DNA of 64,000 nt from a virus. This document shows, piece by piece, positions 8,868 to 28,400 of the stretch (within the stretch, counting starts at the first letter, position 1; each line of letters starts with the position of its first letter). The notes under the pieces were generated by a model. It made no database searches. It saw only the letters and a program-made list of their open reading frames with translations, and was not told the DNA's origin. Location: the IMG/VR virus record IMGVR_UViG_3300026189_000002, positions 32,001 to 96,000 of that record, one strand, 5' to 3'. A program made the position numbers and the translations under genes.

Positions 8868-11351
8868 ATGTCTTTTACACTTGAGCAGCTTTCAGAGGGC
8901 ATCCGCGCTCGCCATCTAGGGGCTGAAAACAACAGATTAATTGAAAAATGGACCAAAACCGGTCTTTTACGCGGATTAAACGGTGTTAATCGAGAGTCTA
9001 TGGCTAGACTGCTTGAGAATCAGGCATCCCACGTTATTAAAGAGGCTTCTAGTCTTGGAAATGGTGGTAATGGTGCTTTAACAGCTTCTGGCGACATGAG
9101 AGGCTTCACTAATGTTGCTTTTCCTATCGTTAGAAGAGTATTTGGTGGCCTAATTGCAAATGATCTTGTTTCAATTCAGCCTATGAGTCTTCCTTCAGGA
9201 CTGCTCTTCTATCTTGACTACACAAGAGGCGGAGATCACGGCGTTGGAGATCCTATTAGCGGTCAGTCAAACTCAATATATGATAAAGGTTCTTCTTTAT
9301 ATAATAACCCAACGGGCTCTGCCATAAGAAAAGGTTCAAATGCAGTTGCTGGTCAATATGACCTTGCAGGAACTTCTTTTTCTAGAGCACACGGCAAGAG
9401 GTTGCTGGCTACTGCAGATATTGCAGCAGCTGGAACTGTTTTGGCTGACGGAACAATTGGTCGCGACATTGATGGCGATAACGGCGATAGAACAAAAACT
9501 TTGACAGCAACCGGAGCTGATGCACTTCTCCTTGATTTTGATCAGCAGGTTCTAGACACTGTTGCCGCTGGTGATAGTCATGCATCAGGTTCAAATCCAT
9601 TCTCCTTGCTCTGTGTTAAAACAGAGAACATGACGGATTTAGATCCAACCGCTATCAAGGGCGTTGCGCTACTAGCAAACTCTGGCTCTGCTGAGGGTAT
9701 TGGCGGCGGCGGTGGTCCTGCCTCTGCTACTGTTACAGTTTTAGCTGATTCGTTTGGCGATGCATTTGGAAATGGAAACGAATTAACTATAGGCATAGTT
9801 CTTCCTGCTGCTTTTGTTTCTCCTGAGGCTGGACAAAATGCCGCCGTTCCTGCAGCTCAGACCACAATAAGCGTAATCATTCAAGACTTCGGCGAATTAG
9901 GACCTGGTAATCCTGCACAGAATGCAATACACGTTGATTCTGCCGGAACAGCTAATATTAATGAAGTTGCAACACTTATAGCTAGTGCGCTTAACGGTAC
10001 AGAAGATGCTGCTATTGCTACAAATATAGCAGCTGCTCTAGCAAGTGGCGATGACGACATTGCAGATGGCCCAATTTTTGGTATTACGGCATCTGTGGAT
10101 GGTGCTGTTGTTACAATCTCTCAAGCTCGCGACGGAGATGAACATGCGGTTGGATTAACTGCTGCAGGCCAAGCTCACGATCAAGCTGCTCAAGTAACCC
10201 TAGGCGGTCTAGTCAACGGAAATCTTTCTGGTGGCGTTGATGATGGTACTCCTGTACACCTCAAGGTTGTTGGAAATGACTCAAAGGGTAATCCTTTCCA
10301 AGAGGGTGCTGGTTTGGTTAACATCAGAAGACTAAATGTTCTTGGTACAATGTCGGGCGGCGTCTTTACAGAGAATCCTTTCGCTGACGTAAAAAATGCA
10401 GCTACAGCAATCAGAATGGTTGTTGCAGGCGCTATACCAACAGAGACAATCGAAAAGGCAGAGCTCGATACTTCAGGTTCACTAGTTTACCCTAGAGCTT
10501 CGCAGCTTTCTACAGGAAACGGAGACACTCTAGTTGTTCCTTCTTTTGAGTCTGACTTTAACGGTGCAAACCCGCAGCCTTCAATCCCTGAGATTGACAT
10601 AAAGGTTGAGGCTGTTCCAGTTGTTGCTGAGACTAGAAAGCTAAGAGCAAGATGGTCTCCTGAATTAGCGCAGGACCTTAACGCTTATCACAGCCTAGAT
10701 GCAGAGGTTGAGTTGACTCAGATTCTATCTGAGCAGATTGCCCTAGAGATCGATAGAGAAATTCTCAGCGATCTTTTGACCGGCGCTTCTGCAGCAAACT
10801 TCTTCTGGTCAAGAGCTCCAGGTAAGTTTGTTAACAAGGAAACGGCTGAGGATGGCCCAGCGACCGCTAGCTTTACAGGTACGGTTCGTGAGTGGTATGA
10901 GACTCTAGTAGAGACGATCATAGACGTTGCCAATCAGATTCACAGAAAGACGCTAAGAGGTTCTGCGAACTTCATTGTCTGCGGACCTGATGTTGCGACG
11001 ATTTTAGAAGCTTCAGTTCTTTACAAGCCTAGCTACTCACTTGACGGTGACGGTCAGGTATCAGCGCCGATGGTTATTGGAGCTGATAGAGCAGGAACAT
11101 TGAGCAATAGATTTACAGTCTATAAGGACCCTTATTTCCCACGTAACAAGATCTTGGTCGGTTACAAGGGCGGAAGTTACTTAGAGACAGGTTTTGTATA
11201 CGCTCCTTATGTTCCACTTATCGTTACTCCTACAATCTTCCAGCCTGAAGACTTTACTCCTAGAAAGGGAGTGATGACTCGCTACGGTAAGAAGATGGTA
11301 AGAGCCGATTTTTACGGAACGGTTACTTGCTTGGATATGAATATCATCTAA
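8868..11351 (+). CDS. Major capsid protein paralogue 1 (gp23-like, 827 aa, extra inserted domain)
   Basis: gp23 motifs VSIQPMSLPSGLLFYL, RKLRARWSPELAQDLNAYH, EIDREIL, YAPYVPL and PRKGVMTRYG. Confidence 0.95.
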   Translation: MSFTLEQLSEGIRARHLGAENNRLIEKWTKTGLLRGLNGVNRESMARLLENQASHVIKEASSLGNGGNGALTASGDMRGFTNVAFPIVRRVFGGLIANDLVSIQPMSLPSGLLFYLDYTRGGDHGVGDPISGQSNSIYDKGSSLYNNPTGSAIRKGSNAVAGQYDLAGTSFSRAHGKRLLATADIAAAGTVLADGTIGRDIDGDNGDRTKTLTATGADALLLDFDQQVLDTVAAGDSHASGSNPFSLLCVKTENMTDLDPTAIKGVALLANSGSAEGIGGGGGPASATVTVLADSFGDAFGNGNELTIGIVLPAAFVSPEAGQNAAVPAAQTTISVIIQDFGELGPGNPAQNAIHVDSAGTANINEVATLIASALNGTEDAAIATNIAAALASGDDDIADGPIFGITASVDGAVVTISQARDGDEHAVGLTAAGQAHDQAAQVTLGGLVNGNLSGGVDDGTPVHLKVVGNDSKGNPFQEGAGLVNIRRLNVLGTMSGGVFTENPFADVKNAATAIRMVVAGAIPTETIEKAELDTSGSLVYPRASQLSTGNGDTLVVPSFESDFNGANPQPSIPEIDIKVEAVPVVAETRKLRARWSPELAQDLNAYHSLDAEVELTQILSEQIALEIDREILSDLLTGASAANFFWSRAPGKFVNKETAEDGPATASFTGTVREWYETLVETIIDVANQIHRKTLRGSANFIVCGPDVATILEASVLYKPSYSLDGDGQVSAPMVIGADRAGTLSNRFTVYKDPYFPRNKILVGYKGGSYLETGFVYAPYVPLIVTPTIFQPEDFTPRKGVMTRYGKKMVRADFYGTVTCLDMNII

Positions 11352-11371
11352 GCTTTTAGCTAGCGAAAATT

Positions 11372-11400
11372 AAAAGGGACCTTTTTGGTCCCTTTTTTTT
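11372..11400 (+). terminator. Rho-independent terminator after capsid gene 1
   Basis: AAAAGGGACC-TTTTT-GGTCCC followed by a T8 run. Confidence 0.9.
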
Positions 11401-11433
11401 ATTTTTAGTTTTTTCATAATACATTTTAACAAT

Positions 11434-11440
11434 ATACTTA
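11434..11440 (+). promoter_or_regulatory. Putative late promoter (ATA[ACT]TTA motif) for capsid gene 2
   Basis: ATACTTA just after the terminator. The same motif precedes many virion genes. Confidence 0.55.
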
Positions 11441-11445
11441 GTTAA

Positions 11446-11690
11446 GTGGATATAAGCTGCAAATGGAGGCCATTAATGGATCCAGCGGCGAAAGATTTTT
11501 AAAAGAGGATCAACTCACAATAGTTGTCCAAGAAGTTAATACAGATTGAATTCCCGGCCTTCTGTGTTTGTTTAGTATGGGAATGGTAAGTTCTGTTATC
11601 TAACAGATCGCTCCGGCTGACGCCTAATGGTTGCGATGAAGATTTTGGGGCTTTCCGATTTTGTTCGAATGATGACATAATATATTTTTT
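11446..11690 (+). ncRNA. Putative structured RNA / 5' leader of capsid gene 2
   Basis: GC-richer than the other spacers. Several hairpins (11507-11529, 11538-11568, 11592-11607, 11607-11637) and pseudoknot-compatible pairings. Confidence 0.55.
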
Positions 11691-11703
11691 AAGGAGTAAT
11701 AAA

Positions 11704-13677
11704 ATGTCAAACTTTTCATTGGAGCAGTTGACGGAGGGCATTCGCCAGAGACATCTCGGTAGCCAGAACCGTCAGCTCGTAGATAAGTGGGCCAGAACCG
11801 GTCTACTTCGTGGTTTAGAAGGCACAGGCCGTGAAAACATGGCTCGCCTACTAGAAAACCAAGCTTCACAGGTTCTTCGTGAGGCTTCTAGTCTTGGTGA
11901 CGGCGGCAACGGCGCTCTATCTGCTTCTGGCGATATGCGCGGTTTTACCAACGTTGCTTTCCCTATTGTTCGCCGTGTTTTCGGTGGATTGATTGCAAAC
12001 GATCTTGTTTCAATTCAGCCTATGAGCCTTCCTTCAGGACTGCTCTTCTATCTAGATTATACATCAGGCGCTGCTCACGGAGTAAGCCCCGCTCATGCAG
12101 ACGGCAGAAAAGCTGCTGCAGTTAATCCAGAGGGATCTTCTCTTTACAATGGCCCTTCAGGAGCCGGCGTCAGAACAGGCTCAACAGCAATAGGCGGAAA
12201 ATATGACTTAGGCGGTTTAGCCCAGTCTCGTAACATGAGACTAAATGAAGATCTTGATTTCCTAGGAACCGATGGAGAACCTGCAGCTTCTAGAAACTTT
12301 GTTTTCTTGGCCAATAATCATGATCTACCGGTTATACCTAATGCAAATGATCCCGGTCCCGGAGTTGGAACTACTGGTTTAGCCGGTAGACTTCTTCAGT
12401 TTGATGCACAGACAATTGCTGATATTGAAGCTGGACAAGAAGTCAGCTTCTTGCTTATACCGTTTACGGAGCATAACTTCAAAGACTGCGATTCAACTAT
12501 GGTTAAAGAAATCATGGTAGTTGATGATTCAGATGATGCTTCTTTGACTTATTTTCAAGCAGTTCCTACAACTCGCCAAGGTGCTTCCAACGCCTTAAAC
12601 ATTATGAAGCTTAATCAGCTTGTTAAGGTTGAAGATTCACACGGCACTGCCAAGTTGGATGCTCCCAAGATCGCCGCAATGACTCCCGCACCTTTAGCTT
12701 CTGTTGGAGACGATGATGTATGCTTGTTGGTTGCATGCCATAATGACGGTGGTGCTCTTACTAATGCCGATATGAATGATGGTGCTGGCGGTAAGCTAGG
12801 TGTTGTATATCCAGTTGCATCATCCTTATCTGCTGAAGACGGATCAAGCATAGTTGTTCCTTCTTTCGAGTCAGACATGGATGCTTCTAATCCGCAGCCT
12901 ACAATCCCAGAGATTGACATCAAGGTTGAGGCCGTTCCAGTTGTTGCTGAGACTCGCAAGCTACGTGCACGTTGGTCACCAGAGCTCGCTCAGGATCTTA
13001 ACGCTTATCACAGCCTTGACGCTGAGGTTGAGTTGACCCAGATCCTTTCAGAGCAGATTGCTTTGGAAATCGACCGCGAGATCCTTAGTGATCTTCTTAC
13101 TGGCGCTTCTGCAGCAAACTTCTTCTGGTCAAGAGCTCCAGGTAAGTTTGTTAACAAAGAAACAGCAGCTAATGTAGTAAGTTCCGGAGTTCCTTCTTTT
13201 ACAGGAACTGTTCGTGAGTGGTATGAGACTCTCGTAGAAACAATCATTGACGTTGCTAATCAGATTCACCGCAAGACGCTTCGCGGTTCTGCAAACTTTA
13301 TCGTTTGCGGTCCGGACGTTGCAACAATTCTTGAGGCATCTGTTCTTTACAAGCCTTCTTACACCCTTGATGGTGACGGACAGGTTTCGCAGCCAATGGT
13401 TATCGGTGCAGACCGCGCTGGTACACTAAGTAACCGCTTCACTGTTTACAAGGATCCTTACTTCCCAAGAAATAAGATTCTTGTTGGTTACAAGGGCGGA
13501 AGCTACTTGGAGACTGGATTCGTCTATGCTCCTTACGTACCATTGATTGTCACACCTACAATCTTCCAGCCAGAGGATTTCACCCCACGTAAGGGTGTCA
13601 TGACTCGCTACGGCAAGAAGATGGTTCGTGCTGACTTCTACGGCACAGTCACTTGCTTGGATATGAACATTATTTAA
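11704..13677 (+). CDS. Major capsid protein paralogue 2 (gp23-like, 657 aa; probably the dominant shell protein)
   Basis: Same gp23 motifs as paralogue 1. AAGGAG SD. CGT/CGC-biased Arg codons in the core. Has its own promoter motif and terminator. Confidence 0.95.
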   Translation: MSNFSLEQLTEGIRQRHLGSQNRQLVDKWARTGLLRGLEGTGRENMARLLENQASQVLREASSLGDGGNGALSASGDMRGFTNVAFPIVRRVFGGLIANDLVSIQPMSLPSGLLFYLDYTSGAAHGVSPAHADGRKAAAVNPEGSSLYNGPSGAGVRTGSTAIGGKYDLGGLAQSRNMRLNEDLDFLGTDGEPAASRNFVFLANNHDLPVIPNANDPGPGVGTTGLAGRLLQFDAQTIADIEAGQEVSFLLIPFTEHNFKDCDSTMVKEIMVVDDSDDASLTYFQAVPTTRQGASNALNIMKLNQLVKVEDSHGTAKLDAPKIAAMTPAPLASVGDDDVCLLVACHNDGGALTNADMNDGAGGKLGVVYPVASSLSAEDGSSIVVPSFESDMDASNPQPTIPEIDIKVEAVPVVAETRKLRARWSPELAQDLNAYHSLDAEVELTQILSEQIALEIDREILSDLLTGASAANFFWSRAPGKFVNKETAANVVSSGVPSFTGTVREWYETLVETIIDVANQIHRKTLRGSANFIVCGPDVATILEASVLYKPSYTLDGDGQVSQPMVIGADRAGTLSNRFTVYKDPYFPRNKILVGYKGGSYLETGFVYAPYVPLIVTPTIFQPEDFTPRKGVMTRYGKKMVRADFYGTVTCLDMNII

Positions 13678-13701
13678 GTTCATTTCTAGCAATCGCTAAT
13701 C

Positions 13702-13735
13702 GGAGGGGTCGTTATTCGGCCCCTCCTTTTTTTTT
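13702..13735 (+). terminator. Rho-independent terminator after capsid gene 2
   Basis: GGAGGGGTCG-TTATT-CGGCCCCTCC followed by a T9 run. Confidence 0.9.
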
Positions 13736-13791
13736 CTTATTTTTAAATCTGATATTTATACTTGTCTATTTTTCTGTTTGAGGTTTATACT

Positions 13792-14316
13792 ATGTCTAGC
13801 GAACGTCTAAAGCGATTAAAGTGTCTTGTTGATGAATTGTCAGACAGGGATCGCCAACTAAAAAGCGATTCTGGCATGTTTGTCGATTTTTTTCAAAACT
13901 TTCCTATTCCTGTTACCATGTGGTCTTTAGACGAGTCGGGGAATATATTAGCTAAGCGTGGAAATGCAGTTGTTAAAGAAGCCGGTGCGACTTGCTTAGG
14001 CAATATGTTTTTAGACAATTATTCTAACGAATTTAAGGAAGCCCATAAAAAAGCATACGAAGGACAAAACGTAGAATTTTTTTCTGAGCTAACAGATAAA
14101 GTATATTACACTAGACTTGTTCCTAGAAAATCTGAAGATGAAATAATAGGACTAACAGGAATATCTTGGGATATAACTTCTAATTTTAAAATTTTACAAT
14201 CACTAAAATCCATAATTGAAATGTGCGATAATGAAAACTCTGAAAAAAAAGATATTAAAAAAATCGCTCAAGAATCAATAAACATCAGCAGAATAAAAAA
14301 ACTGTTAGGAGAATAA
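13792..14316 (+). CDS. Stand-alone PAS/PAC domain protein
   Basis: FFQNFPIPVTMWSLDESGNI...HKKAYEG...YYTRLVP...EIIGLTGISWDIT fits the PAS/PAC pattern. GAGG SD before ATG 13792. Confidence 0.7.
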   Translation: MSSERLKRLKCLVDELSDRDRQLKSDSGMFVDFFQNFPIPVTMWSLDESGNILAKRGNAVVKEAGATCLGNMFLDNYSNEFKEAHKKAYEGQNVEFFSELTDKVYYTRLVPRKSEDEIIGLTGISWDITSNFKILQSLKSIIEMCDNENSEKKDIKKIAQESINISRIKKLLGE

Positions 14317-14652
14317 ATGAGCGACAATAATCAAAACGGCTGGAATGAATATTCTAGGCTAGTATTAAAAGAGCTAGAAACTCTTGCAGATGGAATAGAG
14401 TCAGTAAAATCAGAACTTCAAGAAGTCAGACAAGAGATGGCAAAAATGCAAGTTAGAGAAGACCGCATGGAAGAAATAAAACAGTGGAAAGAAAGAGTTG
14501 ACGATGTTGCTTCTCCGATACAACTAAAAGAACTAGTTAACGAAGTAAGTTCCCTTAAAGAATTTAAAACTAGGGCTATAACAATTTTTGCAGTCGTACA
14601 GTTTATAATGGCGTTTTCTGTATGGTATGTTAAATTCTTTCCGACAGGTTAA
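14317..14652 (+). CDS. Coiled-coil protein with C-terminal transmembrane helix (XhlA/holin-like topology)
   Basis: Heptad region followed by AITIFAVVQFIMAFSVWYV. AGGAG SD, abuts the PAS gene. Confidence 0.55.
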   Translation: MSDNNQNGWNEYSRLVLKELETLADGIESVKSELQEVRQEMAKMQVREDRMEEIKQWKERVDDVASPIQLKELVNEVSSLKEFKTRAITIFAVVQFIMAFSVWYVKFFPTG

Positions 14653-14686
14653 TTTATGATCATATTTACTTTTATGGAACTGCAAC

Positions 14687-15853: not shown

Positions 15854-15857
15854 AAAA

Positions 15858-16526
15858 ATGGCTAGGCTATTTATTACGGCTAGAGAAATAGATTTAATAT
15901 CTGACCTTACTAAAGAAGTAATCAAAGATGTTTCTGGCCAAAAAGTTTTTTATTACAGAGTAAGAGAAGACTTAACAGACGTTCACGAGATTTACGAAGA
16001 AGCAGAAAATAAAGTATTTGATCCACCAGTAGAAATAGAAGCCCGCGTAGAGTATCAGCCCGGAATAATAAAAACCAACAGGTTCGGCAACGAGGAAATA
16101 GATACGATAAATGTTTTTTTCCACGAGAGAGATATAATAGACAAAGATTTAGAAATAAGAATGGGCGATTACTTTAGTTACGGAGAAGTTTTTTTTGAAA
16201 TAACTAGCGCAGTAGTAGAGTCAAACATTTTTGGACAAATAGAGCACTCTATAGGCATAAAGGTTATAGGAAAGCAGGCAAGAAAAGGTGCTATAGACTT
16301 TACCGCTTTAGGTCCTACTCAAAATGGAATAGAGGAAAACAAAGTAGTACAAGAAGAATTTGAACAACAAAGAGGGCTAAAAGAAAATTCTTCAGGAGAA
16401 ACAAACGACGTTAGGGCTTTACAAGAAAAAGGAAAAGTTGATCCTGTTAAAGAGCCGGCTAAAGTAAAAAATCAAAAGACTAAAGATTCCGGAACAACAG
16501 AATCATTTTTTTACGGGGATAGATAA
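15858..16526 (+). CDS. Head closure/neck protein (gp14-like)
   Basis: GQKVFYY...IYEEA...FG...GDYF pattern. Follows the gp13-like gene. Confidence 0.65.
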   Translation: MARLFITAREIDLISDLTKEVIKDVSGQKVFYYRVREDLTDVHEIYEEAENKVFDPPVEIEARVEYQPGIIKTNRFGNEEIDTINVFFHERDIIDKDLEIRMGDYFSYGEVFFEITSAVVESNIFGQIEHSIGIKVIGKQARKGAIDFTALGPTQNGIEENKVVQEEFEQQRGLKENSSGETNDVRALQEKGKVDPVKEPAKVKNQKTKDSGTTESFFYGDR

Positions 16527-17835: not shown

Positions 17836-20800
17836 ATGGCTGAGCAGACATTCAGATCACCGGGATTTTTTGAAAGAGAACTTGATAGATCGGCACCGAC
17901 TGTCACACCTAACAACGCTGTACCAGCGGGTATAATAGGAACTTCTGAGAAGGGTCCGGCCTTCGTTCCAGTTACGGTTGGAAATAAAAACGATTTCAAA
18001 AATAAGTTTGGTAACAACAACATTTATAGATTTGGTCCATACGCGGCAGAAGCCATGTTTGGAAAAAACCAAAAGGCTATTACCTTTATCAGGGTTTTAG
18101 GTGCAGGTGCAAACGATAGTGTAACTGATATATCAAACACATTAACACAAGGAACAGTTAAAAACGCGGGCTTTGTTTTAAAAGGAAATGATGGCCACAG
18201 TGATGCCCATGTTCCTCCTAGAAGCAATTTAGGGGACCCGAACTCACCAACGCAGACGCTGGCTAACTTGGGCTCTAGAAAAATAGGTTCGATACAGTTC
18301 TTGACTGCTATACACAGCGTAAATGACGCAGAGCCCCAAGGATTTCCTATTTTTACAGATAATAGAAGTACTCCTATGAATGCATCTGTACCTGACGGCG
18401 TCGCTGACGGAGATGTCTCACTTCTTCGTGCAGTATTAATGACTCCAAGCGGTTCTACATTTTTAGTCGGCGATCACGACGCAGCTACAGCAGACGACTA
18501 CTTTGATACAGCTAGCACCGGTGACGTGAATCAGTTTAAGCTTCTTTTGACTTCTTCTTCCGGGGCTGGACTTGGATCTGATTTAAATGCAGGGTCTAGA
18601 CTGTTTGATATATCTTTAGACCCTAACGCTGACAACTATATTTCTAGAGTATTAAACACGAACCCTCTTAAGTTTCAAGAAGAGGAGCACTTACTTTACT
18701 TAGATTTTGCTGTAGAAAATGAAATTGCTCCAGTTAAAACCGGTGGTGGTGCAGCAAATAATAGAAACGGGTCAACAGTAGCTTTGCTGATGGGTTCTAA
18801 TAACAATACCGCAGCCGGCGGAATTAGCAATTCTCCATTTAGGGATCTCTTTGGAAGATATGATACCAGATATCAAACGGCTAGAACATCCGCATTTATA
18901 TCTCAGCCCTATGGATCCAAAGAATACGAGCTTTTTCATTTTGAAACAATAGACGACGGAGCATCTGCATCAGATGAATTTAAGGTATCTATAGCAAACT
19001 TGAGAGCGTCTAACGATGAATCTAATCCTTATGGAACTTTTGAGGTTCAAATAAGGTCTTTTTCTGATTCAGACAAAGGACCAGAAATATTAGAGCGATA
19101 TCCTTTTTGTAACTTAAATCCATCTTCAGACGACTTCGTCGCAAAAAAGATTGGAGACTATAAAGCAAGATATGACTTTGATCAAGCTGATCCTGATGAG
19201 CGTAGAATAGTAGTAACAGGAAGATATCCCAATATGTCTTCTAGAGTAAGAATTGTAATCAACGAAGATGTATATAGTTCTGAAGTTCCAAGTAATGCTC
19301 TGCCTTTTGGCTTTAAAGGAATCCCGGTTTTAAGAACGTCGAATACTTTAACAGATAGGTCGGCTAATCCTTTACCAGGAGGAACAGCTGAAGCAGCAAC
19401 AGCTAGACTCGCTGCTCCTTCATCAGGAATAGAAGCTGACGAGTCGCCGTTAGCACTTCAGCACGCAGTAGTGCCACCTCTTCCGTTTACTTTTAAAGTA
19501 ACTAGAGGCGAACTTTCACAAGCAGCAGGCGCTGCTTATTTATTCACTGGTATGCCCAGCGATACAGAAAGAGTTGACAGTGCTTACTACTGGGGAGTTA
19601 AAACAACACGCCTCCCGCGCGCTGTAGACGTAGGTAGCGATGCAACTGCTGTTAGAAGATCGAATGAGAGTTCTATAATTAACCCGTTGGTTAGAGCATA
19701 TACTAAATTTCAAGGAATAGAAAAGCTTGATGTTTTAGTAACAGGCTCTTCTAACGTAGACGATTTTAATGATAATAAGTTTACATTGGCCAGAGTGGCT
19801 TTTTCACAAACTGGAACTGACTTAGGATCTATACAAACAGATTTTTCTGGTTCAGCTAGAGAGCACATGAAAGATGCTGCCTACATAAGAAACGGGGAAC
19901 CTAACACAGTAACTTATACAGTAAACGACATAGACGCGAATGGACGACTTAACGGCGCTGTAGATAAGACAGACCGGTTTACGATGGCTAGCCTTTTAGC
20001 TACCAGTTCAATTATATTTAATAGATTTTCTTCTTACGCAAAATTTACTAACATATTCTACGGCGGTTTTGACGGCGTTAACATCCTGGATAGAGACCAG
20101 ACGTTTTTTAGAGATAGAGCTCTATCTGCAGACTCTGACGGAAAAGCTAGAAAGGTAACTGGCGCTCCTGAAATAGTAGATAACGGCATAGCTGTTTCTA
20201 GTGCGACTGAAAATCCATTTGGATCAGGAAGAAAAAACAATTACGTCGCTTCTATTAATAGAGCGATCGATATCATGACTGACCCTACTGCTACTCGCGT
20301 TAATATACTCGCAATACCAGGAGTAAGAGAGCCCTTTGTTACTGATCACGCATTAGAAAAAACAAAGCAATACGGCCAAGCACTATACGTCATGGATAGC
20401 ATTCAGTACGATGAGCTAGGAAACAGGTTATACGACGACTCCGCCGCTCGCCCGGACGTAAGAGAGACATCAGAAAAATTTGAGGCTAGAGGACTAGACA
20501 ATAATTACGGAGCTACTTATTTTCCAGACGTTTTTATAAGCGACCAAGATAACAACCAAGTCGTAAAAATGCCATCTAGTATCCCAGCTCTGGCTACTCT
20601 ATCAAATACGGACGATTTAAGAGCACCGTGGTTTGCTCCTGCTGGTTTTGCTAGAGGGGCATTAGATTTTGTTGTCAACGTAGACGTAAGATTATCTTCA
20701 GAAGACAGAGACGTCTTATACGACTCTAGAATCAACCCAATTGCGGTTTTTCCAAGAGCAGGCTTCGTAATTTTTGGTCAAAAAACTCTGCAGCAAGCTA

Positions 20801-21126
20801 AATCTGCTCTAGATAGAGTTAACGTCAGAAGATTAATGGTAGAAGTAAAAAGAAAGATTGTAGGAATTGCCCTAAATCTTCTTTTTGAGCCTAACAATGG
20901 AACCACGAGAGCAACATTTATTTCTGAAGCAGCGAGCGCTTTAGCAAATATACAACTCGGTGCAGGCATAGAGTCATTTAATATTGTTATGGATGATTCA
21001 AATAATTCACAGGAGGACATAGATTCAAACCGCCTAAACGGTAGAATCGAAGTTGTTCCTACTCGTGCCGTAGAGTTTATAGCAATCGACTTTGTTATAA
21101 CAAATAGCGGCGTAGAGTTTAATTAA
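17836..21126 (+). CDS. Tail sheath protein 1
   Basis: N-terminal SPG..RE.D and GPAFVP. C-terminal PWFAPAG, INPI, GQKTL and DRVNVRRL. Confidence 0.95.
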   Translation: MAEQTFRSPGFFERELDRSAPTVTPNNAVPAGIIGTSEKGPAFVPVTVGNKNDFKNKFGNNNIYRFGPYAAEAMFGKNQKAITFIRVLGAGANDSVTDISNTLTQGTVKNAGFVLKGNDGHSDAHVPPRSNLGDPNSPTQTLANLGSRKIGSIQFLTAIHSVNDAEPQGFPIFTDNRSTPMNASVPDGVADGDVSLLRAVLMTPSGSTFLVGDHDAATADDYFDTASTGDVNQFKLLLTSSSGAGLGSDLNAGSRLFDISLDPNADNYISRVLNTNPLKFQEEEHLLYLDFAVENEIAPVKTGGGAANNRNGSTVALLMGSNNNTAAGGISNSPFRDLFGRYDTRYQTARTSAFISQPYGSKEYELFHFETIDDGASASDEFKVSIANLRASNDESNPYGTFEVQIRSFSDSDKGPEILERYPFCNLNPSSDDFVAKKIGDYKARYDFDQADPDERRIVVTGRYPNMSSRVRIVINEDVYSSEVPSNALPFGFKGIPVLRTSNTLTDRSANPLPGGTAEAATARLAAPSSGIEADESPLALQHAVVPPLPFTFKVTRGELSQAAGAAYLFTGMPSDTERVDSAYYWGVKTTRLPRAVDVGSDATAVRRSNESSIINPLVRAYTKFQGIEKLDVLVTGSSNVDDFNDNKFTLARVAFSQTGTDLGSIQTDFSGSAREHMKDAAYIRNGEPNTVTYTVNDIDANGRLNGAVDKTDRFTMASLLATSSIIFNRFSSYAKFTNIFYGGFDGVNILDRDQTFFRDRALSADSDGKARKVTGAPEIVDNGIAVSSATENPFGSGRKNNYVASINRAIDIMTDPTATRVNILAIPGVREPFVTDHALEKTKQYGQALYVMDSIQYDELGNRLYDDSAARPDVRETSEKFEARGLDNNYGATYFPDVFISDQDNNQVVKMPSSIPALATLSNTDDLRAPWFAPAGFARGALDFVVNVDVRLSSEDRDVLYDSRINPIAVFPRAGFVIFGQKTLQQAKSALDRVNVRRLMVEVKRKIVGIALNLLFEPNNGTTRATFISEAASALANIQLGAGIESFNIVMDDSNNSQEDIDSNRLNGRIEVVPTRAVEFIAIDFVITNSGVEFN

Positions 21127-21164
21127 AATAGTATTTAAGGAATGAGGATTTTAGGAGACACTAA

Positions 21165-24100
21165 ATGGCAGAGTTAACATTCAAGAGTCCAGGAGTAAGC
21201 ACAAGAGAGATAGACCATTCGGGTCCTACTCCACAATCACCCACGGGTGTACCGGCCGGAATTATAGGCCCCTCAGTTAGAGGGCCTGCATTTGTTCCAG
21301 TCACTGTCGCAACATTTCAGGACTTTGTTAACAAGTTCGGTAACGCTGATGGTAAAAAGTTTGGTCCTATAGCCATGAATGAGTGGTTAAACAATGCTGG
21401 ATCAGGAACTTATGTTAGAGTCTTAGGCGTTGGAGATGGAAAAAAGAGAAACGCTGATGGAACTGTAACAAACGCAGGCTTTGTTGTTGGATCTGATAAG
21501 CCGCAAGAAAACGGTTTGATAGGAAACAACGAGTATGCAGAAAGCGGAAGCGTTCCAGCAGTTACAGCTAAAGCCCACCTAGAAACAGCTGGAGTTGCTA
21601 GTGCTGAAGTAGACATAGACGTTGGTAATGCAGACAACGCCCGCTCAACTTTAACACTAGAGGATACAGAAGGCAATTCTTCTGAGTTTATGTTTGTTAA
21701 TTCTGAGTCTCCTCGGGTTGTATTAACTTCCGGTACAGCAATTCAGGCCGACGACCCTATAGACGCTCTCGCCGGCGAGAATCCCGCAGCCGGGGATACA
21801 GCTCAAGCGAATGATGCAGGCCGTATTGCAATAGCTCCTATAGGAACAGGGGGATCTGCACCAACCGCATCTATAAGACTAAAGCAAAGCGATCCCGCAA
21901 GTTTAGACGCACTGGCGGTTGACGACGGATCTTCTTTCGACATTGATATACCAGCTGCTGCTCCAAGCTCGGTCTCTGGAACGCTTACTATTAAGTTTGT
22001 AGCTGAAGCCAGCGTTACTTTAGACCAAGCAACCGATGGCGAGTTGAATACAGTTATAATAGTAACAGACAAGGATGACGGAGCCGACGGCTCGGAAGAA
22101 AACGCATTAAGATTAATCAAAGCAATTTTAGAAGGAACTGACATTACCACGGTGCAGCGCGAAGATGGCGTTACTAATTTCGATAATGCTTCAGTTCTTT
22201 ACGCTTCTACAGGCGCTGTCGGTAGATTAGGACAAAACGATTACGGCCTAAGCGCTACGATAACAAGCCAAGTGCCTAACGGGGCCGGCGATGCAGTCGA
22301 GACTGGTGCTTCTATTGCAATTGCTTCTGTAGTAACCAGTACTTTGGCTCATAGAATAAGCATACAGACTGCGAATAACGACGCTGTACTGTCTATGGGG
22401 CCTGATGCTGCTGGATTACAAGCAGTAGAAGCCGCTGAAGCGACCACTCAAAACCTGGTTGGCGCTGTTATTACAAACGCAAACTTGCTAAGCGCAATAA
22501 AAGATGCTGTAAACGCTCAAGCCGGATTAAATATTACAGCCGGAAATGTAGACGGTAATGTCCTTCAGTTAGATCAAGACACTGCAGGCGACACTACAAC
22601 TGCAATCGGTCAGACTGGGACTTTCGATGGAGACGATACTTTGATTGTTGCCGGCGGAACAAAAGCTGCACCTGCAGAAAATGCAGCAAATCGATTTGGC
22701 GGTGGCGACGACGGAGTAGCTGCTGCAGATTTATACGCCGGAAGAACATACGTTTTAGGCGCATTTATGGTAGACGCCAACAGCAGCGGTCTGCTAGCTG
22801 ACGCTGGAATTACCAATAACGCCGGCGGAGGTGCCCCTGTAGCTCGTGGTATTTTAATGTGCCCAGCAGGCGTTATACCTTCAATAAAGTCTGTTAGAAA
22901 TTCAAATACGACCCCACAAGGAGTTCACACACAGGATTTAACAGCAGCCAATAGAAATCCAACCAATCACGATTCTCCTGGGTCTTACCCTAGGTTTGGA
23001 CCTAACTTTATGGCAGGAAATGAAGTAGGGGATTTAAATGATGATCTAACTACTTTTGACCTTTACCTTAACGGACTAAAGATTACGGGCAACGAATATA
23101 TTAACAGCCGCACTTTAAAAATCTCCTTTGATCCAGATCAGCCCTCTTATTTTGTTAACAAATTAAATACTGATCCAAGCAAGATCGAAGAGATGGGCCA
23201 CTATCTCTATATGCACTTTGATATAAGCAAGCAATTTGCAACAATTGAAAACAGCGACGGCGTCAATGCAAATGACGACAATTCTGGAAGGCATGCCGTT
23301 TTCTGTTTACCTACTCAACAGCTTAGGGATACAAGCGTACCAAGCGCTAACGACCTTATCGGTGTTCCTAACCTGGAGTCTTTTGAGGATAGATATTCAA
23401 CTGCAGTTTCACCTTTTGTTATATCTCAAAAGTTCGGTGGAAGAAATAGAGACCTGTTTAGGTTCCACGCTTTAGATGATGGCGCTGTTGGGGCTGGAGC
23501 TTATAAGATAACCATAGAAAATATAACATCCTCCAGATCGGGCGCTAATCCTTTTGGAAAATTTGACGTATTGGTAAGAAAGTTTGACGATACGGATAAA
23601 ACCCCGTTTGTTTTAGAAGCTTATAGGGGCGTCAATATCGACCCTTCATCGGATCGTTATATAGCAAAAGTCATAGGCGATACTCACGCCTATTACGATT
23701 TTGATAAGAGTGCCGCAAGTCAAAAACTAGTTATATCGGGAAGATATGATAACAACTCTTCTTATGTACGCGTAGAAGTTTCTGACGATTTACTAAACAA
23801 CAACATAGATAATACGGCTTTACCATTTGGGTTTCGAGGGTTAAACCACATGGTTTTTGACGGAACTGCTAAAGTAAATGCAAACGCAGGCGGAAATACC
23901 GGCTGTTCATCTATATTGGATCACGGTGATTGCGACACCGGTATCAAAGTAGACTTTCAGACTGTAAAGATGCCTCCTGTGCCTATGAGAGAAAGATTGT
24001 CGGTTGGAACAGGCGTAAAGAAATCACTGGATTCTGATTTAACGTGGGGAGTTCAGTTTGAAGTTAAACCTAATCCTGCCGAGCCTAATGCTGGAAAGAA

Positions 24101-25451
24101 GATAGATGCATCTATACTTTCTCACGTAAGATTTATGCCATCTTTTGATACAACGGGATTAAAGTCTTCTGTAGGAAATAACGCTGGAGTCGCAGACATA
24201 GCAGGGGCTATATTGGATTCCGATCGTTATAACAACAATAAATTCTCTTTAGAAAATATAGCTGTTATACTCTCAGGGGATAAACCTGACAAAGAGCTTT
24301 GGGCTTATAGCAGATATATTAGAAACGGCGTTAACCCAGGAACTCTAGACGATGATGAGGGCGTTGCTCAAGTAGCTAGGTTAATAATCCCTTCGGATCT
24401 AGAAAACAATGCTGTTACAAAATACATGAAGTTTACACTACCTTTGACTGGTGGATTTGACGGAACAGATAAATTTGTTAAGTCTAAGGTTGAATTTACT
24501 AATGAAGCTGTTCACAACGAATCTTCAGATCCTAATGAAAATTCTGTAAGCTCTGCCACTATAGCCTCTTATAGAAAAGCAATTGACGTTATGGAAGAAA
24601 GAGCGGATGTTGATATTCAGTTGCTTTCTGTTCCTGGAATAAGGAATCCAAAGGTAACAGATTACGCAATGGAATCTGTAGAAAGACGATTCGACGCGCT
24701 GTATATTATGGATATAGAAGAAAGAGACGCGCAAAATAATGTTATTCTTTCTGATGCGCCTGTTTCTGTTTCAAACACGGTTGCTGGATTTTTAAATAGA
24801 GATATCGACAGCTCTTTTGCTGCCGCGTATGCTCCGGATGTTATTATAAAAGATCCAGGAACCGGCACAAACGTAAAATGTCCCCCGTCCGTTGCAGTAC
24901 TGGGAGCTATCAGCTTAAACGATACCATAAAACATCCTTGGTTTGCGCCTGCTGGATTTAACAGGGCGTCTTTACCTTCTACAGTTGAAGTAAATACTAG
25001 GCTCAACAGATCAAATTTAGATGATCTATATGATGCAAAAATAAACCCAATAACTAAGTTCCCTGCAGCTGCTGGTACAACTCAGGCTAACCCTGTTATA
25101 TGGGGCCAAAAGACTCTTCTTGCAGCTCCGTCTGCTTTAGATAGAATAAATGTAAGAAGGCTTTTAATAAATGTAAGAAGAAAAGTCAGGGCTGAAGCAA
25201 ACAAAATATTGTTTGAACCAAATAGAGAAAGTACACTAGCACAGTTTAGCGCTGCGGTTAATCCGATATTAGCTGATATACAAGCTAATCAGGGTGTCGA
25301 TAGATTTAAGGTCGTTATTGATACTTCAACGACAACTCAAGCGGATGTAGAGAATAATACCATTAGGGGCAAAATATTCTTGCAGCCGACTAGATCGCTA
25401 GAATTTGTTAGTTTAGACTTTGTTGTTAAAAATGCAGGCGCTGACATTTAA
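21165..25451 (+). CDS. Tail sheath protein 2 (large nested insertion)
   Basis: Motifs SPGVSTREID, GPAFVP, PWFAPAG, INPI, GQKTL and DRINVRRL. Confidence 0.95.
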   Translation: MAELTFKSPGVSTREIDHSGPTPQSPTGVPAGIIGPSVRGPAFVPVTVATFQDFVNKFGNADGKKFGPIAMNEWLNNAGSGTYVRVLGVGDGKKRNADGTVTNAGFVVGSDKPQENGLIGNNEYAESGSVPAVTAKAHLETAGVASAEVDIDVGNADNARSTLTLEDTEGNSSEFMFVNSESPRVVLTSGTAIQADDPIDALAGENPAAGDTAQANDAGRIAIAPIGTGGSAPTASIRLKQSDPASLDALAVDDGSSFDIDIPAAAPSSVSGTLTIKFVAEASVTLDQATDGELNTVIIVTDKDDGADGSEENALRLIKAILEGTDITTVQREDGVTNFDNASVLYASTGAVGRLGQNDYGLSATITSQVPNGAGDAVETGASIAIASVVTSTLAHRISIQTANNDAVLSMGPDAAGLQAVEAAEATTQNLVGAVITNANLLSAIKDAVNAQAGLNITAGNVDGNVLQLDQDTAGDTTTAIGQTGTFDGDDTLIVAGGTKAAPAENAANRFGGGDDGVAAADLYAGRTYVLGAFMVDANSSGLLADAGITNNAGGGAPVARGILMCPAGVIPSIKSVRNSNTTPQGVHTQDLTAANRNPTNHDSPGSYPRFGPNFMAGNEVGDLNDDLTTFDLYLNGLKITGNEYINSRTLKISFDPDQPSYFVNKLNTDPSKIEEMGHYLYMHFDISKQFATIENSDGVNANDDNSGRHAVFCLPTQQLRDTSVPSANDLIGVPNLESFEDRYSTAVSPFVISQKFGGRNRDLFRFHALDDGAVGAGAYKITIENITSSRSGANPFGKFDVLVRKFDDTDKTPFVLEAYRGVNIDPSSDRYIAKVIGDTHAYYDFDKSAASQKLVISGRYDNNSSYVRVEVSDDLLNNNIDNTALPFGFRGLNHMVFDGTAKVNANAGGNTGCSSILDHGDCDTGIKVDFQTVKMPPVPMRERLSVGTGVKKSLDSDLTWGVQFEVKPNPAEPNAGKKIDASILSHVRFMPSFDTTGLKSSVGNNAGVADIAGAILDSDRYNNNKFSLENIAVILSGDKPDKELWAYSRYIRNGVNPGTLDDDEGVAQVARLIIPSDLENNAVTKYMKFTLPLTGGFDGTDKFVKSKVEFTNEAVHNESSDPNENSVSSATIASYRKAIDVMEERADVDIQLLSVPGIRNPKVTDYAMESVERRFDALYIMDIEERDAQNNVILSDAPVSVSNTVAGFLNRDIDSSFAAAYAPDVIIKDPGTGTNVKCPPSVAVLGAISLNDTIKHPWFAPAGFNRASLPSTVEVNTRLNRSNLDDLYDAKINPITKFPAAAGTTQANPVIWGQKTLLAAPSALDRINVRRLLINVRRKVRAEANKILFEPNRESTLAQFSAAVNPILADIQANQGVDRFKVVIDTSTTTQADVENNTIRGKIFLQPTRSLEFVSLDFVVKNAGADI

Positions 25452-25469
25452 TAGTTAAAAGGGTTATCT

Positions 25470-28400
25470 ATGTCAGAGTTCCCGCTAAAACACTCGGGAG
25501 TAACAGCCCGCTTTACAACAGGCAGTGTAAATACAGGTTCGTCTAACGTAATCACCGGTATTCCGTACTGTTTGATTGGCACTTCTGTATCCGGCCCTGC
25601 TTTTGTTCCGCTTTCTTTTGGAAATAAAGAAAAATTTAGCCAGATTCACGGAGATTTAGTTTCCGACCACTTGGCTCAAGTTACTACTGACGAGCTGTTA
25701 AATCTAGAACAAGATGTGACTTTTGTTAGAATATTAGGCACCGGTGACGGCAAACCTAGAAACTTAGATGGAACAGTAACCAACGCTGGATTTATTGTAG
25801 GCGAAAATCAAATTCAAAACAACGTAGTAATAGATACTAGGCCTACAATTAACAATAATCAACAGATGGATGAAATAGTAGAAACAAATACTCTGCTAGA
25901 AAGATCTTTAGGCAATAATAAATTTTCTCATTCTCCAATAAACACTGCTGAGGCATCAAATTCTCACGGTAGAACTTATATATTAGGCTGTTTTTTAAAG
26001 CCTTATATAATAAGCAGGGTCGCCGGTGGTGGCTTGTTTGATCTTCCTGATAATAGCAAAATAAATACTTTTACCAGGTCTGGAATAGACATGAGTAAAA
26101 AGTCTGCTCCTATAATCAGAGCAGTCATAATGGCGGCATCAGGTGTTTCACTTTCAGTATCATCTTCTATTGAAAATACTCATAACGAACCAATAGATCA
26201 AGGGGTTACTGGGATATTTGGAATAGGTAAAGACGCAGGCCATCAAATTGGCAATGTAGATAAAGGCCCGGGTGGTGCTCTTCAAGAATTTTGTTTGTTT
26301 CAAAATGGGCATAAAGATGCTTCAAAAAGAAAATTAAATCTCAGCTTTGATAAAACAAATGATAGATTTTTTGCCTCTATATTGAATAGAGATCCAGATA
26401 GGCTTGAAGAAGAAGGCCACTATCTTTATACTAGCTATGATGACGTATATTTTTCTGATGCAGTCGTCGACAATGCTTACACAAATGCTACTCCTAAAGC
26501 ACCGGAGGTTCAAGGAGATCAAGAGCTGCAGGGGATTGAAGATGGAGAATATTCGGTTTTTTGTCTAAGAACAAATTCTGGAATTGGAGCGCAGGCTCAA
26601 CAAAAAGTATTAATTGCTCATGACGACGGCTTAAATGGAGAAACTATAATCATTACTATCCCTGCTAATATTCACGGTCAGGGAATACCCGCTCAAGCTA
26701 CGCCAATAACTATTAAAATAAAAACTGTAGAAGCAGTAATTGAAGATTTAGATGGGCTAACAAATACTATCGTGGTCTCTATTGCAGGTTTGCAAGGCGT
26801 AGCCCTTGCAAGAATAGAAATAGCACAGAGAATCAAAGAAGTCTTAAACAGAAAACTAGATGATCAAGGAAATCCAGATTTTCTTCACCATGTTCATAAT
26901 TTGCCGGCAGAACTAACTTCTAGTGAATCCCTAATAAAAGGCATAATAGCAGAACACGATCCTGCGGTAGACACAGTTAATTTAATACTAAAGGCATTAG
27001 GCAACGGAATATACGGAAACTCTATTTTAATAGAAACTTCTGATGAATCAAAGATAGCCGCTCAAGGATCCACTTTTGAGGGCGGCATAGATAATCAGCC
27101 AGGATCTTCCGGAACAACTTCCACAGAAGACTATTTGGGTATTCCTAATTTTGAAAAATTTAGAAATAGATATACTCATCCTAAAACCCCGTTTTTTGTT
27201 TCCCAGACAGTTAATGGAAGAGTATACGATCTTTTTAGGTTACACGCCGTATCAGATGGAGAGCATAAGGAGCCAATAGTTGCAACTATAAAACAAATAA
27301 GCCCTTCGGCTTCTTCATTTCAGAACAGAATAGAAAATACTTCAGACCGTCAAGTTAATGTAGATTTATATGGAACGTTTTCTTTAGAGATATCTGGGTC
27401 GATTATAGGCGATCCTATACTGGCAGATAACTTAAGTTTAGACCCTAGTAGTCCGGACTTTATCTCTAGAAGAATAGGCGACGTGCACTTGTATCACAAC
27501 CTTGATTCTTCTGAAAAAACTGTAGTAGCTGGAAAATATCCAGCTTTCTCTAATGATCCTCAGACTTTTGGAAAAATAAGAGTAGAAGTAAACCCGGCAA
27601 TCGAAAGAAAAGAAATACCACCAGAGTGTTTACCCTTCGGCTTCAGAGGAATGCCGCACTTAGCAACGGCAGGAAATACAGATGCTAATTCAAACGGCAT
27701 TTTTTATTTGCAAGATGATTGCCCTGCGGTCATTAAAAATATGCTAAATTCAGTAACAGAACCTCCTTTCCCATTAAGAGACAGAATTTGGGTAGATTTA
27801 AACTCTGAACCATCTGTAACAAACGTTAGTTGGGGAGCAGCAACTCAAGTATTAGGTACAAACAAAAACTTGTTTAACAACATGTCTTTTACAAGATATT
27901 TTCCAGATTTTAATACTAACATTCAAAATCCATGGATTGTTGATAATACTAGCAAAACAATTCTCGGTGGCAAAGAAATTAATAACGACAAATTTAATAA
28001 TAATGGATTTTCTTTAGAGAAAATATTAGTTCCTTGCAATGCAGATGAAGACGGCGTAAAGTCTATATTAGGCACATTTACAGACGGTGATATTACTAAC
28101 CCCAGGGATCTTCCAGGATACTTTTGGAAAGCGGCCAGGTATATTAGGGATGGTATAGACGACGGCGGTATTCTTCTCAACTATCCAAATAAAGACGACA
28201 CGCGATTTAATTTAAGTGCCGGTAATTCTACAAAGTTTCTAGAATTAAAAGACTTATTAAACACCGGTGTCCAAACATTGGCAAAATTTTCTTGTTTGTT
28301 TTATGGCGGATTTGACGGATTAAATATTTTTGACAAGCAAAAAAGAAATATGACAAATTTGGCTCTGTATGATGAGCAGTCAGAGTTAAGCCATAATAAA

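What the first reader, a model, noticed from the sequence alone, without database searches (positions are those of the whole stretch)
9702..27095. One mobile ~170-aa domain inserted in both a capsid protein and tail sheaths
Seen: the extra segment of capsid 1 (about 9702-10247) aligns by eye with an insert in sheath 3 (about 26580-27095): ELTIGIVLPA/ETIIITIPA, VPAAQTTISVII/IPAQATPITIKI, NAIHV/NTIVV, EVATLIASALN/EIAQRIKEVLN, IFGITASVD/IKGIIAEHD, LSGGVDD/FEGGIDN. Sheath 2 carries related material (FDIDIPA..TLTIKF..NTVII..LRLIKAILE..YGLSATI). Capsid 2 and sheath 1 lack it. Inference: a plug-in display domain (adhesion or shielding) coats head and tail through decorated paralogues mixed with plain ones. 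This may be an undescribed virion surface-display system.
Basis: partly seen in the sequence, partly recalled or inferred. Interest (0 to 1): 0.85.

Follow-up and report, generated by a model that had tools for sequence, protein, structure and literature searches.

The report
Shared plug-in domain on phage head and tail
An uncultured large contractile-tailed phage carries the same uncatalogued ~175-residue protein module inserted into one of its two capsid proteins and into its tail-sheath proteins. This is a new example of the known phage habit of moving accessory surface domains between virion proteins, and the module's job is untested.

Summary
Capsid 1 (aa ~274-460) and sheath 3 (aa ~368-551) each carry a clean insertion that close relatives lack, and the two inserts are homologous. 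The window's own pair is not significant by BLASTP or Smith-Waterman. A capsid-1 orthologue (P0007) matches the sheath-3 insert at E 2e-8 (z 12.9), and a profile-profile comparison of the two independent families gives 90% probability, P 1.5e-6.

Sheath 2 is a weaker case. Capsid 2 and sheath 1 lack the module.

Iterated profiles found 33 different copies:
- at three sheath sites;
- in the capsid insertion-domain region;
- twice in ~3,700-aa proteins encoded next to baseplate genes of unrelated viral contigs.

There were no hits in Pfam, PHROGs, PDB sequences, 50,697 GenBank phages, or (by motif scan) cellular genomes.

Both AlphaFold models failed (pLDDT ~36), so the fold is unknown. The function (adhesion or decoration) is inferred, not shown.

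The concept is already known from Ig-like domains (Fraser 2006), and this scan has found the same habit in other phages. I class it as a new member of a known kind.

The parts
8868..11351 (+). Capsid 1 (P0001, 827 aa), a gp23-type major capsid protein paralogue that carries the module
   Evidence: Pfam PF07068 E 8e-77, phrog_138. The core is identical in protein to capsid 2.
9687..10247 (+). Module copy in capsid 1 (aa ~274-460), nested in the enlarged insertion-domain region of the capsid protein
   Evidence: Clean insertion relative to L001 and others. Family HMM E 2.7e-31. It is the most variable part among orthologues: 48-68% identity against 89-96% in the flanks.
11704..13677 (+). Capsid 2 (P0002, 657 aa), the plain paralogue without the module
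   Evidence: PF07068 E 2e-76. No module HMM hit. In the 159-codon C-terminal core there are 85 synonymous and 2 non-synonymous differences from capsid 1.
17836..21126 (+). Sheath 1 (P0003, 1096 aa), without the module
   Evidence: phrog_23 E 6e-54, PF17482. No module hit.
21165..25451 (+). Sheath 2 (P0004, 1428 aa)
   Evidence: phrog_23 E 3e-49, PF17482.
21546..22739 (+). Sheath 2 insert (aa 128-525) at sheath site A. It is probably a diverged and expanded module. The N-half match is aa ~251-326 (nt ~21915-22142) and the C-half match is aa ~437-505.
   Evidence: Clean insertion relative to L002 and L028. At least nine sheath-2 orthologues carry a clear module at this same site. HHalign P 2e-4 to 1.8e-3. 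0 of 200 shuffles reach the score. The L081 orthologue was recruited at E 7e-5. It was not found by the final HMM.
25470..29465 (+). Sheath 3 (P0005, 1331 aa), a divergent sheath paralogue
   Evidence: phrog_23 E 2e-5. 27% identity to sheath 2, E 3e-65. The L081 orthologue has 40% identity.
26571..27122 (+). Module copy in sheath 3 (aa ~368-551) at sheath site B, a different loop from the sheath 2 site
   Evidence: Clean insertion relative to L028 and L002. BLASTP E 2e-8 to capsid-1 orthologue P0007. HHalign Prob 90%. Family HMM E 5.5e-23. Conserved in L081 sheath 3.

Best explanation
What it is. The feature is an uncatalogued, virus-restricted accessory domain of about 165-185 residues. Its predicted strand and helix order is four strands, one or two helices, then three or four strands. 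Recurrent motifs are F-x-I-x-I-P, N-x-I-x-I, A-A-L-I-x-x-A-I-N-G-T, G-I-T-A, G-x-x-G-N and a closing G-G.

Shown:
- Recombination has inserted it into loops of different virion proteins.
- In this phage one copy is nested in the insertion-domain region of capsid paralogue 1.
- A second copy sits in a loop of sheath paralogue 3.
- A third, strongly diverged and expanded copy very probably forms the 398-aa insert of sheath 2.

Inferred (location). All three sites lie in parts of the capsid and sheath folds that face outward in T4 and other myoviruses. The module would therefore be displayed on the surface of head and tail.

Inferred (mechanism).
- It has no conserved catalytic-type residues; only Gly, Ala, Asn and hydrophobic positions are kept.
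- It evolves much faster than its scaffolds.
- It works in unrelated lattices and in tandem within giant proteins of the baseplate and fibre gene region.
- It is therefore most likely an autonomous, non-enzymatic display domain. The likeliest role is weak binding to host or environmental surface polymers, as proposed for Ig-like domains on phages, rather than an essential building block.

Inferred (mixing). The plain paralogues (capsid 2, sheath 1) have near-identical or conserved assembly cores. Mixed assembly with the decorated ones is therefore plausible but untested.
For: Homology between capsid 1 and sheath 3.

Clean insertions at non-equivalent sites.

Orthologous retention in a second phage (L081) with the same gene order.

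Family of 33 different copies:
- sheath site A in at least nine sheath-2 orthologues and one sheath-1-like protein;
- sheath site B (window and L081);
- sheath site C (L104);
- the capsid;
- two copies in ~3,500-3,700-aa proteins two genes downstream of gp6-like baseplate wedge genes, three tandem copies in L171, and one copy alongside Laminin_G_3 in L173.

Patchy distribution:
- A complete 298-kb relative has none, and a 95%-complete 175-kb virus has it only in the giant protein.
- None of 100 related capsid genes has it.

Faster evolution than the scaffolds (module or insert identity against flank identity):
- capsid 1: 48-68% against 89-96%;
- sheath 3: 30% against 50-53%;
- sheath 2 insert: 36% against 62-80%.

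Only Gly, Ala and Asn positions are invariant or nearly so.

Outward location rests on established knowledge. The T4 gp23 I domain makes bumps on the capsid surface (PMC9958956). Additional sheath domains lie away from the tube (PMC9230969).
Against: - No reliable 3D model exists. AF2 gave pLDDT 36.5 and 35.6, so fold, surface exposure and any binding site are unverified.
- There are no expression, virion-proteomics or binding data.
- Sheath 2 membership rests on weak profile scores plus positional argument, and the 33-sequence HMM built without sheath-2 sequences does not find it.
- The iterated profile started from borderline hits (E 1e-4 to 4e-3), although those then reached E 1e-30 or better and show every motif.
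- Whether capsid 1 and capsid 2 (or the three sheaths) co-assemble is unknown. The record is only ~34% complete.
Confidence: 0.72

Rival explanations
1. Lattice cement. The module mainly makes contacts between neighbouring subunits, stabilising an unusually large capsid and a long sheath. In that case it would be a built-in decoration protein rather than a binding device.
For: The T4 I domain, in whose region the capsid copy is nested, reinforces capsomers (PMC9958956). Extra sheath domains have been proposed to stabilise sheath discs (PMC9230969). The genome is probably very large: the 113-kb record is estimated 34% complete. The ESM Atlas structure lead listed a phage cement-protein cluster among the look-alikes, at TM 0.57; this is a lead only.
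Against: The same module works in three unrelated sheath loops, in a capsid loop, and in tandem inside giant baseplate-region proteins. Specific lattice contacts would not transfer easily between such contexts. It evolves far faster than the scaffolds it would have to grip. Plain paralogues and module-free relatives assemble without it.
Confidence: 0.17
2. The sheath 2 insert is not a copy of the module. Sheath site A is an insertion hot spot, and in this lineage it holds a different, unrelated ~400-aa domain set.
For: - No pairwise or HMM signal.
- The 33-sequence HMM without sheath-2 sequences gives no hit at E <= 10.
- HHalign probabilities are only 8-44%, or 65% for the excised inner piece.
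- The insert is more than twice the module's length.
Against:
- 0 of 200 column shuffles, and none of 12 chunk profiles from the six other orthologous protein pairs (max 17), reach the score.
- The L081 orthologue was recruited at E 7e-5 by a profile holding no sheath-2 sequence.
- At least nine sheath-2 orthologues have an unmistakable module at exactly this site.
Confidence: 0.18
3. Chance or compositional resemblance. The inserts are unrelated beta-rich segments that merely look alike.
For: The window's own capsid-1 and sheath-3 inserts are not significant by BLASTP, Smith-Waterman or phmmer. Both are strand-rich.
Against: P0007 versus the sheath-3 insert gives E 2e-8 with compositional adjustment, and z 12.9. 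Profile-profile P is 1.5e-6 over 106 columns. Sheath 3 is the only outlier among 81 proteins of the genome. Collinear motifs run across 33 copies.
Confidence: 0.02
4. Neutral passenger or decoy. The module spreads because insertion into tolerant surface loops is harmless, or it serves to mask the virion (shielding) rather than to bind anything.
For: Patchy presence among close relatives. High substitution rate. No conserved polar residues that would mark a binding site.
Against: It is retained at the same site in orthologues as diverged as 40% identity (sheath 3 in the window against L081). It is retained across many sheath-2 orthologues. The reading frame is intact in all 33 copies. Carrying ~175 extra residues on a protein made in hundreds of copies is costly.
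Confidence: 0.12

Closest known systems
Ig-like accessory domains (I-set, FN3, Big_2) on tailed-phage virion proteins. Source: Fraser et al. 2006, as cited in PMC9230969, and the T4 Hoc literature (PMC10385173).
   Same: Both are small, autonomous, non-essential domains found on capsid, tail and fibre proteins. Both are exchanged between structural genes and between phages, are patchy among relatives, and are proposed to bind surface carbohydrates weakly.
   Different: No Ig-type Pfam family matches any of 13 members. The module is about twice as long and is predicted to contain one or two helices between two strand blocks. It is nested inside loops rather than appended at an end or added by frameshift.
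Insertion (I) domain of T4 gp23/gp24-type capsid proteins
   Same: The capsid copy lies in the same region of the fold: between Pfam Gp23 model positions 79 and 118, the E-loop insertion region. That region forms surface bumps in T4.
   Different: The T4 I domain has ~60 residues and is part of every subunit. Here the region has ~265 aa in capsid 2 and ~430 aa in capsid 1. The module is a further, separable 185-aa insertion that is absent from all 100 related capsid genes examined.
Additional (protruding) domains of multi-domain tail sheath proteins: T4 gp18 domains I and II, and the 'type 3' sheaths of PMC9230969
   Same: Both are extra domains inserted between the conserved N- and C-terminal sheath core, located away from the tube, more numerous in large phages, and of function unproven.
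   Different: Those domains are described per sheath lineage and mostly as Ig-like sandwiches. This module is demonstrably the same sequence family at three different sheath sites, and also outside sheaths, in a capsid protein and in giant baseplate-region proteins.
Analogous cases noted earlier in this scan on other genomes (e1-5333178, e1-3968608, e1-4570009, e1-5859662, e1-3581049)
   Same: In each, one unnamed domain is inserted into capsid and sheath (and other) virion proteins of one phage, and each was read as a portable surface add-on.
   Different: Those modules are described as 85-120-aa all-beta domains, or as a 255-aa two-repeat unit. I did not test for relationship to this ~175-aa family.

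Membership tests
New module family (defined here; 33 different copies) | Significant sequence similarity between the capsid-1 insert and the sheath-3 insert | tested here: met
   BLASTP P0007 versus the sheath-3 insert, E 2e-8. Smith-Waterman z 12.9. HHalign between the two independent families, Prob 90%, P 1.5e-6. Family HMM E 2.7e-31 and 5.5e-23.
New module family (defined here; 33 different copies) | The sheath-2 insert belongs to the same family | tested here: inconclusive
   HHalign P 1.8e-3 to 2e-4, 6e-5 for the excised inner piece, always in the same register. Shuffle and real-protein controls passed. Orthologues carry a clear module at the same site. No hit with the final HMM or pairwise.
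New module family (defined here; 33 different copies) | Same three-dimensional fold in capsid and sheath copies | tested here: inconclusive
   Both AF2 models are unreliable, with pLDDT 36.5 and 35.6. Only the order of predicted strands and helix agrees. No fold search was run on them.
Ig-like phage accessory domains (Big_2, FN3, I-set) | Match to an Ig-type Pfam model; ~90-100-aa all-beta sandwich | tested here: not met
   No Pfam hit at E <= 10 for the inserts or for any of 13 family members. Length is 165-185 aa with a predicted helix.
Flagellin_IN-like motif (PF07196). This resemblance was recalled from memory, prompted by A-I-N-G-T ... G-I-T-A. | Match to PF07196 | tested here: not met
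   PF07196 does not appear for any member at E <= 10. The profile finds no PDB chain, flagellins included.
gp23-type major capsid protein (PF07068): capsid 1 and capsid 2 as host proteins | Pfam Gp23 above the gathering score | tested here: met
   259.6 and 258.3 bits against a cut-off of 24.4. These are the only two such genes in the 113-kb record.
Contractile tail sheath (phrog_23 / PF17482): sheaths 1-3 as host proteins | Sheath profile match including the C-terminal domain | tested here: met
   Sheath 1 and sheath 2: phrog_23 E 6e-54 and 3e-49, with PF17482 above its cut-off. Sheath 3: phrog_23 only at E 2e-5 and no PF17482 hit, but 27% identity to sheath 2 over 750 aa, E 3e-65.

The most novel reading that the evidence does not exclude
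The phage builds mosaic particles. Capsid 1 and capsid 2 are kept identical in their assembly cores by very strong selection, and the three sheath paralogues co-assemble. The density of one new binding fold on head, tail and (in other viruses) baseplate fibres would then be set by paralogue ratios. The result would be a whole-virion, tunable adhesin coat based on a domain family with no solved or catalogued relative.
Probability: 0.2. Interest if true: 0.7.

Novelty: new member of a known kind. Interest (0 to 1): 0.47.

Why it matters
It adds a well-delimited, non-Ig, virus-restricted domain family to the small set of accessory domains that phages move between head, tail and fibre proteins. 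The family has 33 copies and at least five insertion contexts.

It comes with a natural experiment. Decorated and plain paralogues of both the capsid and the sheath protein sit in one genome, and the two capsid cores are held identical in protein despite 85 synonymous changes in 159 codons. That makes the question 'what do such add-on domains do?' directly testable.

It also gives annotators a profile for large unannotated stretches of jumbo-phage sheaths and of ~3,700-aa baseplate-region proteins.

It does not reveal a new principle.

Tried and rejected
- Pairwise BLASTP, Smith-Waterman and phmmer between the window's own inserts were not significant. The link needed orthologues and profiles.
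- Word-index searches found only two capsid-1 orthologue clusters, and nothing for the sheath inserts.
- The exhaustive phmmer of the sheath-3 insert against 1.84 billion representatives gave 0 hits.
- The genome search could not reach the metagenome records.
- Viral-contig scans with single inserts and with the ETxxITIPAN motif found nothing.
- Alignment A8 was too divergent for the search for related loci.
- AF2 on the capsid module (3 sequences) and on the sheath-3 module (4 sequences) gave pLDDT 36.5 and 35.6. No fold search was run, because low-confidence models give meaningless matches.
- The ESM Atlas gave only weak leads: TM 0.5-0.58 to parts of sheath, neck, cement and stabilisation proteins.
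- Pfam, PHROGs, PDB sequences and GenBank phages gave no hit for any insert or for the family profile.
- The Flagellin_IN resemblance, recalled from memory, was not confirmed.
- The motif scan of bacterial and archaeal genomes gave 25 chance matches only. The best, L190, is an HD-domain protein.
- The module tree does not resolve a donor. Capsid copies form one clade (98/97), but deep branches are weak and the window's sheath-3 copy sits on a very long branch.
- A nested 'module within module' reading of the sheath 2 insert is possible but not established.

Full report
**Setting**

The window is bases 32001-96000 of a 113-kb IMG/VR virus record that CheckV estimates at 34% complete. It encodes:
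- two gp23-type major capsid proteins: capsid 1 (8868-11351, 827 aa) and capsid 2 (11704-13677, 657 aa). Both match PF07068 at about 259 bits;
- a connector and neck block;
- three tandem tail-sheath paralogues: sheath 1 (17836-21126), sheath 2 (21165-25451) and sheath 3 (25470-29465), supported by phrog_23 and PF17482;
- a tail tube gene and a baseplate hub gene.

The nearest sequenced phages share less than 50% capsid identity.

**Are the inserts real insertions?**

Yes. tblastn of the proteins against 80 related metagenome loci shows three clean insertions.
- Capsid 1: aa 126-273 and 459-542 match directly adjacent DNA in L001 and others. About 185 residues (aa ~274-458) are therefore extra.
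- Sheath 2: aa 1-127 and 526 onwards flank only ~6 residues in L002 and L028, which leaves a 398-aa insert.
- Sheath 3: aa 1-323 and 514/547 onwards flank 8-36 residues in L028 and L002.

Sheath 2 and sheath 3 are interrupted at different places in the sheath fold.

**Are the capsid-1 and sheath-3 inserts related?**

The two window sequences are not significantly similar to each other:
- BLASTP E 2.5;
- Smith-Waterman z 0.6-0.8;
- no phmmer cross-hit.

The word-index search found two capsid-1 orthologue clusters, P0006 and P0007. In these the module is the most variable segment. Using them changes the picture.
- A 3-sequence capsid-module profile scores 36-38 against sheath 3 with HHalign. The maximum over 150 shuffles was 21, and the maximum over the other 79 proteins of the genome was 19.
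- P0007 aligns with the sheath-3 insert at E 2e-8 with compositional adjustment. Smith-Waterman gives z 12.9, with 0 of 1000 shuffles as high and 28.5% identity over 165 residues.
- A close relative from IMG/VR, L081, has the same gene order and a sheath-3 orthologue that carries the module at the same site.
- Profile-profile comparison of the capsid family with the sheath-3 family gives 90% probability and P 1.5e-6 over 106 columns.

Chance is excluded.

**Sheath 2**

Pairwise and HMM tests fail.
- 4e-3 with 7 sequences;
- 1.8e-3 with the tool's own hhalign;
- 2e-4 with 33 sequences;
- 6e-5 for the excised inner piece.

Controls:
- No column shuffle out of 200 reaches the score.
- None of 12 chunk profiles from the six other orthologous protein pairs reaches it either; their maximum is 17.
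- The L081 sheath-2 orthologue was recruited at E 7e-5 by a profile that contained no sheath-2 sequence.

The strongest argument is positional. At least nine sheath-2 orthologues (L089/L090, L116, L137, L180, L106, L167, L086, L110, L104) carry an unmistakable module at exactly this site. Against this, the 33-sequence HMM built without sheath-2 sequences does not recover either sheath-2 insert.

I rate membership at about 0.8. The insert is expanded and may contain more than one copy. Capsid 2 and sheath 1 give no signal in any test.

**How wide is the family?**

An iterated HMM over the open reading frames (ORFs) of 160 related loci, plus a motif scan of IMG/VR (AAL[ILV][ILV]xAINGT), gave 33 different copies. 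All 20 new motif hits were full-length modules at E 1e-24 to 1e-58.

Contexts found:
- the capsid insertion-domain region, only in this phage and in the P0006 and P0007 lineages;
- sheath site A, in many sheath-2 orthologues and in one sheath-1-like protein (L176);
- sheath site B, in the window and in L081;
- sheath site C, as the second copy in L104;
- proteins of ~3,500-3,700 aa with two copies, in contigs that share no other gene with this phage. The truncated L161 member is encoded two genes downstream of a gp6-like baseplate wedge gene;
- three tandem copies in L171, directly downstream of a further ORF that follows a gp6-like baseplate wedge gene;
- one copy with Laminin_G_3 domains in L173.

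Distribution is patchy. A complete 298-kb relative has none, and a 95%-complete 175-kb virus has it only in its giant protein.

The same motif in 596 Gb of bacterial and archaeal genomes gave only chance matches. tblastn of four different members against 50,697 GenBank phages gave nothing. No Pfam, PHROG or PDB-sequence match exists for members or for the profile.

In the module tree the capsid copies form one supported clade (98/97), which is consistent with a single insertion into the capsid gene. The deep order is unresolved and no donor can be named.

**What it probably does**

Shown:
- The module is a separable unit that has been inserted repeatedly into different virion proteins.
- It is retained at the same site in orthologues.
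- It evolves faster than its scaffolds:

| Host protein | Module or insert identity | Flank identity |
|---|---|---|
| Capsid 1 orthologues | 48-68% | 89-96% |
| Sheath 3 (window vs L081) | 30% | 50-53% |
| Sheath 2 (window vs L081) | 36% | 62-80% |

- Its conserved positions are Gly, Ala, Asn and hydrophobic residues only.

From established knowledge: the T4 gp23 insertion domain forms surface bumps (PMC9958956), and extra sheath domains lie away from the tube (PMC9230969). The insertion sites should therefore face outward.

Inferred: the module is a non-enzymatic, autonomously folding display domain. I favour an accessory binding role, meaning weak adhesion to host or environmental polymers. 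Three things point that way:
- It also occurs in tandem in giant proteins of the baseplate and fibre gene region.
- It occurs beside lectin-like domains.
- It functions in unrelated lattices.

Lattice cementing and a neutral or shielding role remain live rivals.

The 'decorated paralogues mixed with plain ones' idea is compatible with the striking conservation of the capsid cores: 85 synonymous against 2 non-synonymous differences in 159 codons. It is untested.

**Limits**

- Both structure predictions failed, at pLDDT 36.5 and 35.6. They were run before the wider family was found. Only the order of predicted strands and helix agrees between the two models.
- The ESM Atlas structure look-alikes (sheath, neck, cement and stabilisation protein clusters at TM 0.5-0.58) are leads only.

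**Verdict**

The homology and mobility parts of the interpretation are supported. The sheath-2 claim is probable. Function and paralogue mixing are unproven.

Conceptually this is the known habit of phages to move accessory surface domains between head and tail proteins (Ig-like domains; Fraser 2006, via PMC9230969). This scan has met that habit several times in other genomes. What is new here is a ~175-residue family that is absent from the libraries searched.

Noticed in passing
window 8868-13677 (capsid 1 and capsid 2): The two capsid genes encode almost identical cores but are old duplicates. In 159 C-terminal codons, 72 are identical, 85 differ synonymously and only 2 differ non-synonymously. 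None of 100 related loci has a second capsid gene within 10 kb. No third PF07068 gene (a gp24-like vertex protein) is in the 113-kb record.
   Followed up: partly
window 17836-29465; L081 3993-13405: Three sheath paralogues in tandem ahead of one tube gene (29552-30040, phrog_4542). The same order is seen in L081, and tandem sheath pairs occur in many relatives (L002, L005, L009, L047, L137). Sheath 3 has no PF17482 match and ends in an acidic tail.
   Followed up: partly
L162 2402-12895; L170 3575-10618; L164 2679-12086; G001:C1 ~141-147 kb: Proteins of ~3,500-3,700 aa have no Pfam or PHROG match and carry exactly two module copies about 1,000 residues apart. In L161 the homologous, contig-truncated protein is encoded two genes downstream of a gp6-like baseplate wedge gene, and L179, L170 and L177 show the same ~600- and ~500-aa upstream genes. 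The loci share no other gene with this phage.
   Followed up: partly
L104 5436-9527; L176 2-3055; L171 3558-6845; L173 1-7323: Further architectures were seen. A sheath-2 orthologue has two modules (aa 123-303 and 840-1002). A sheath-1-like protein has one module. A protein next to a baseplate wedge gene has three tandem copies. A 2,441-aa protein combines the module with Laminin_G_3 lectin-like domains.
   Followed up: partly
whole record G000 (113,062 bases; window = 32001-96000): IMG/VR virus record estimated by CheckV at 34% complete, so the genome may be about 330 kb. The nearest GenBank capsid relatives are an uncultured 484-kb phage (LR756508), the Flavobacterium immuto phages and Microcystis phage Mel-JY01, all below 50% identity.
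   Followed up: no
window 8000-14000 against the rest: G+C is 0.45 over the two capsid genes and 0.41-0.44 over sheaths 1 and 2. It is 0.33-0.38 in most of the window, with sheath 3 at 0.36-0.39.
   Followed up: no
window 21546-22739 (sheath 2 insert): The insert may hold more than one module. Joining aa 128-247 to aa 420-525 gives a better match to the family (P 5e-4, 101 columns) than either piece alone. Meanwhile aa 240-415 matches the N-terminal half of the module (P 6e-5). This hints at one copy nested inside another.
   Followed up: partly
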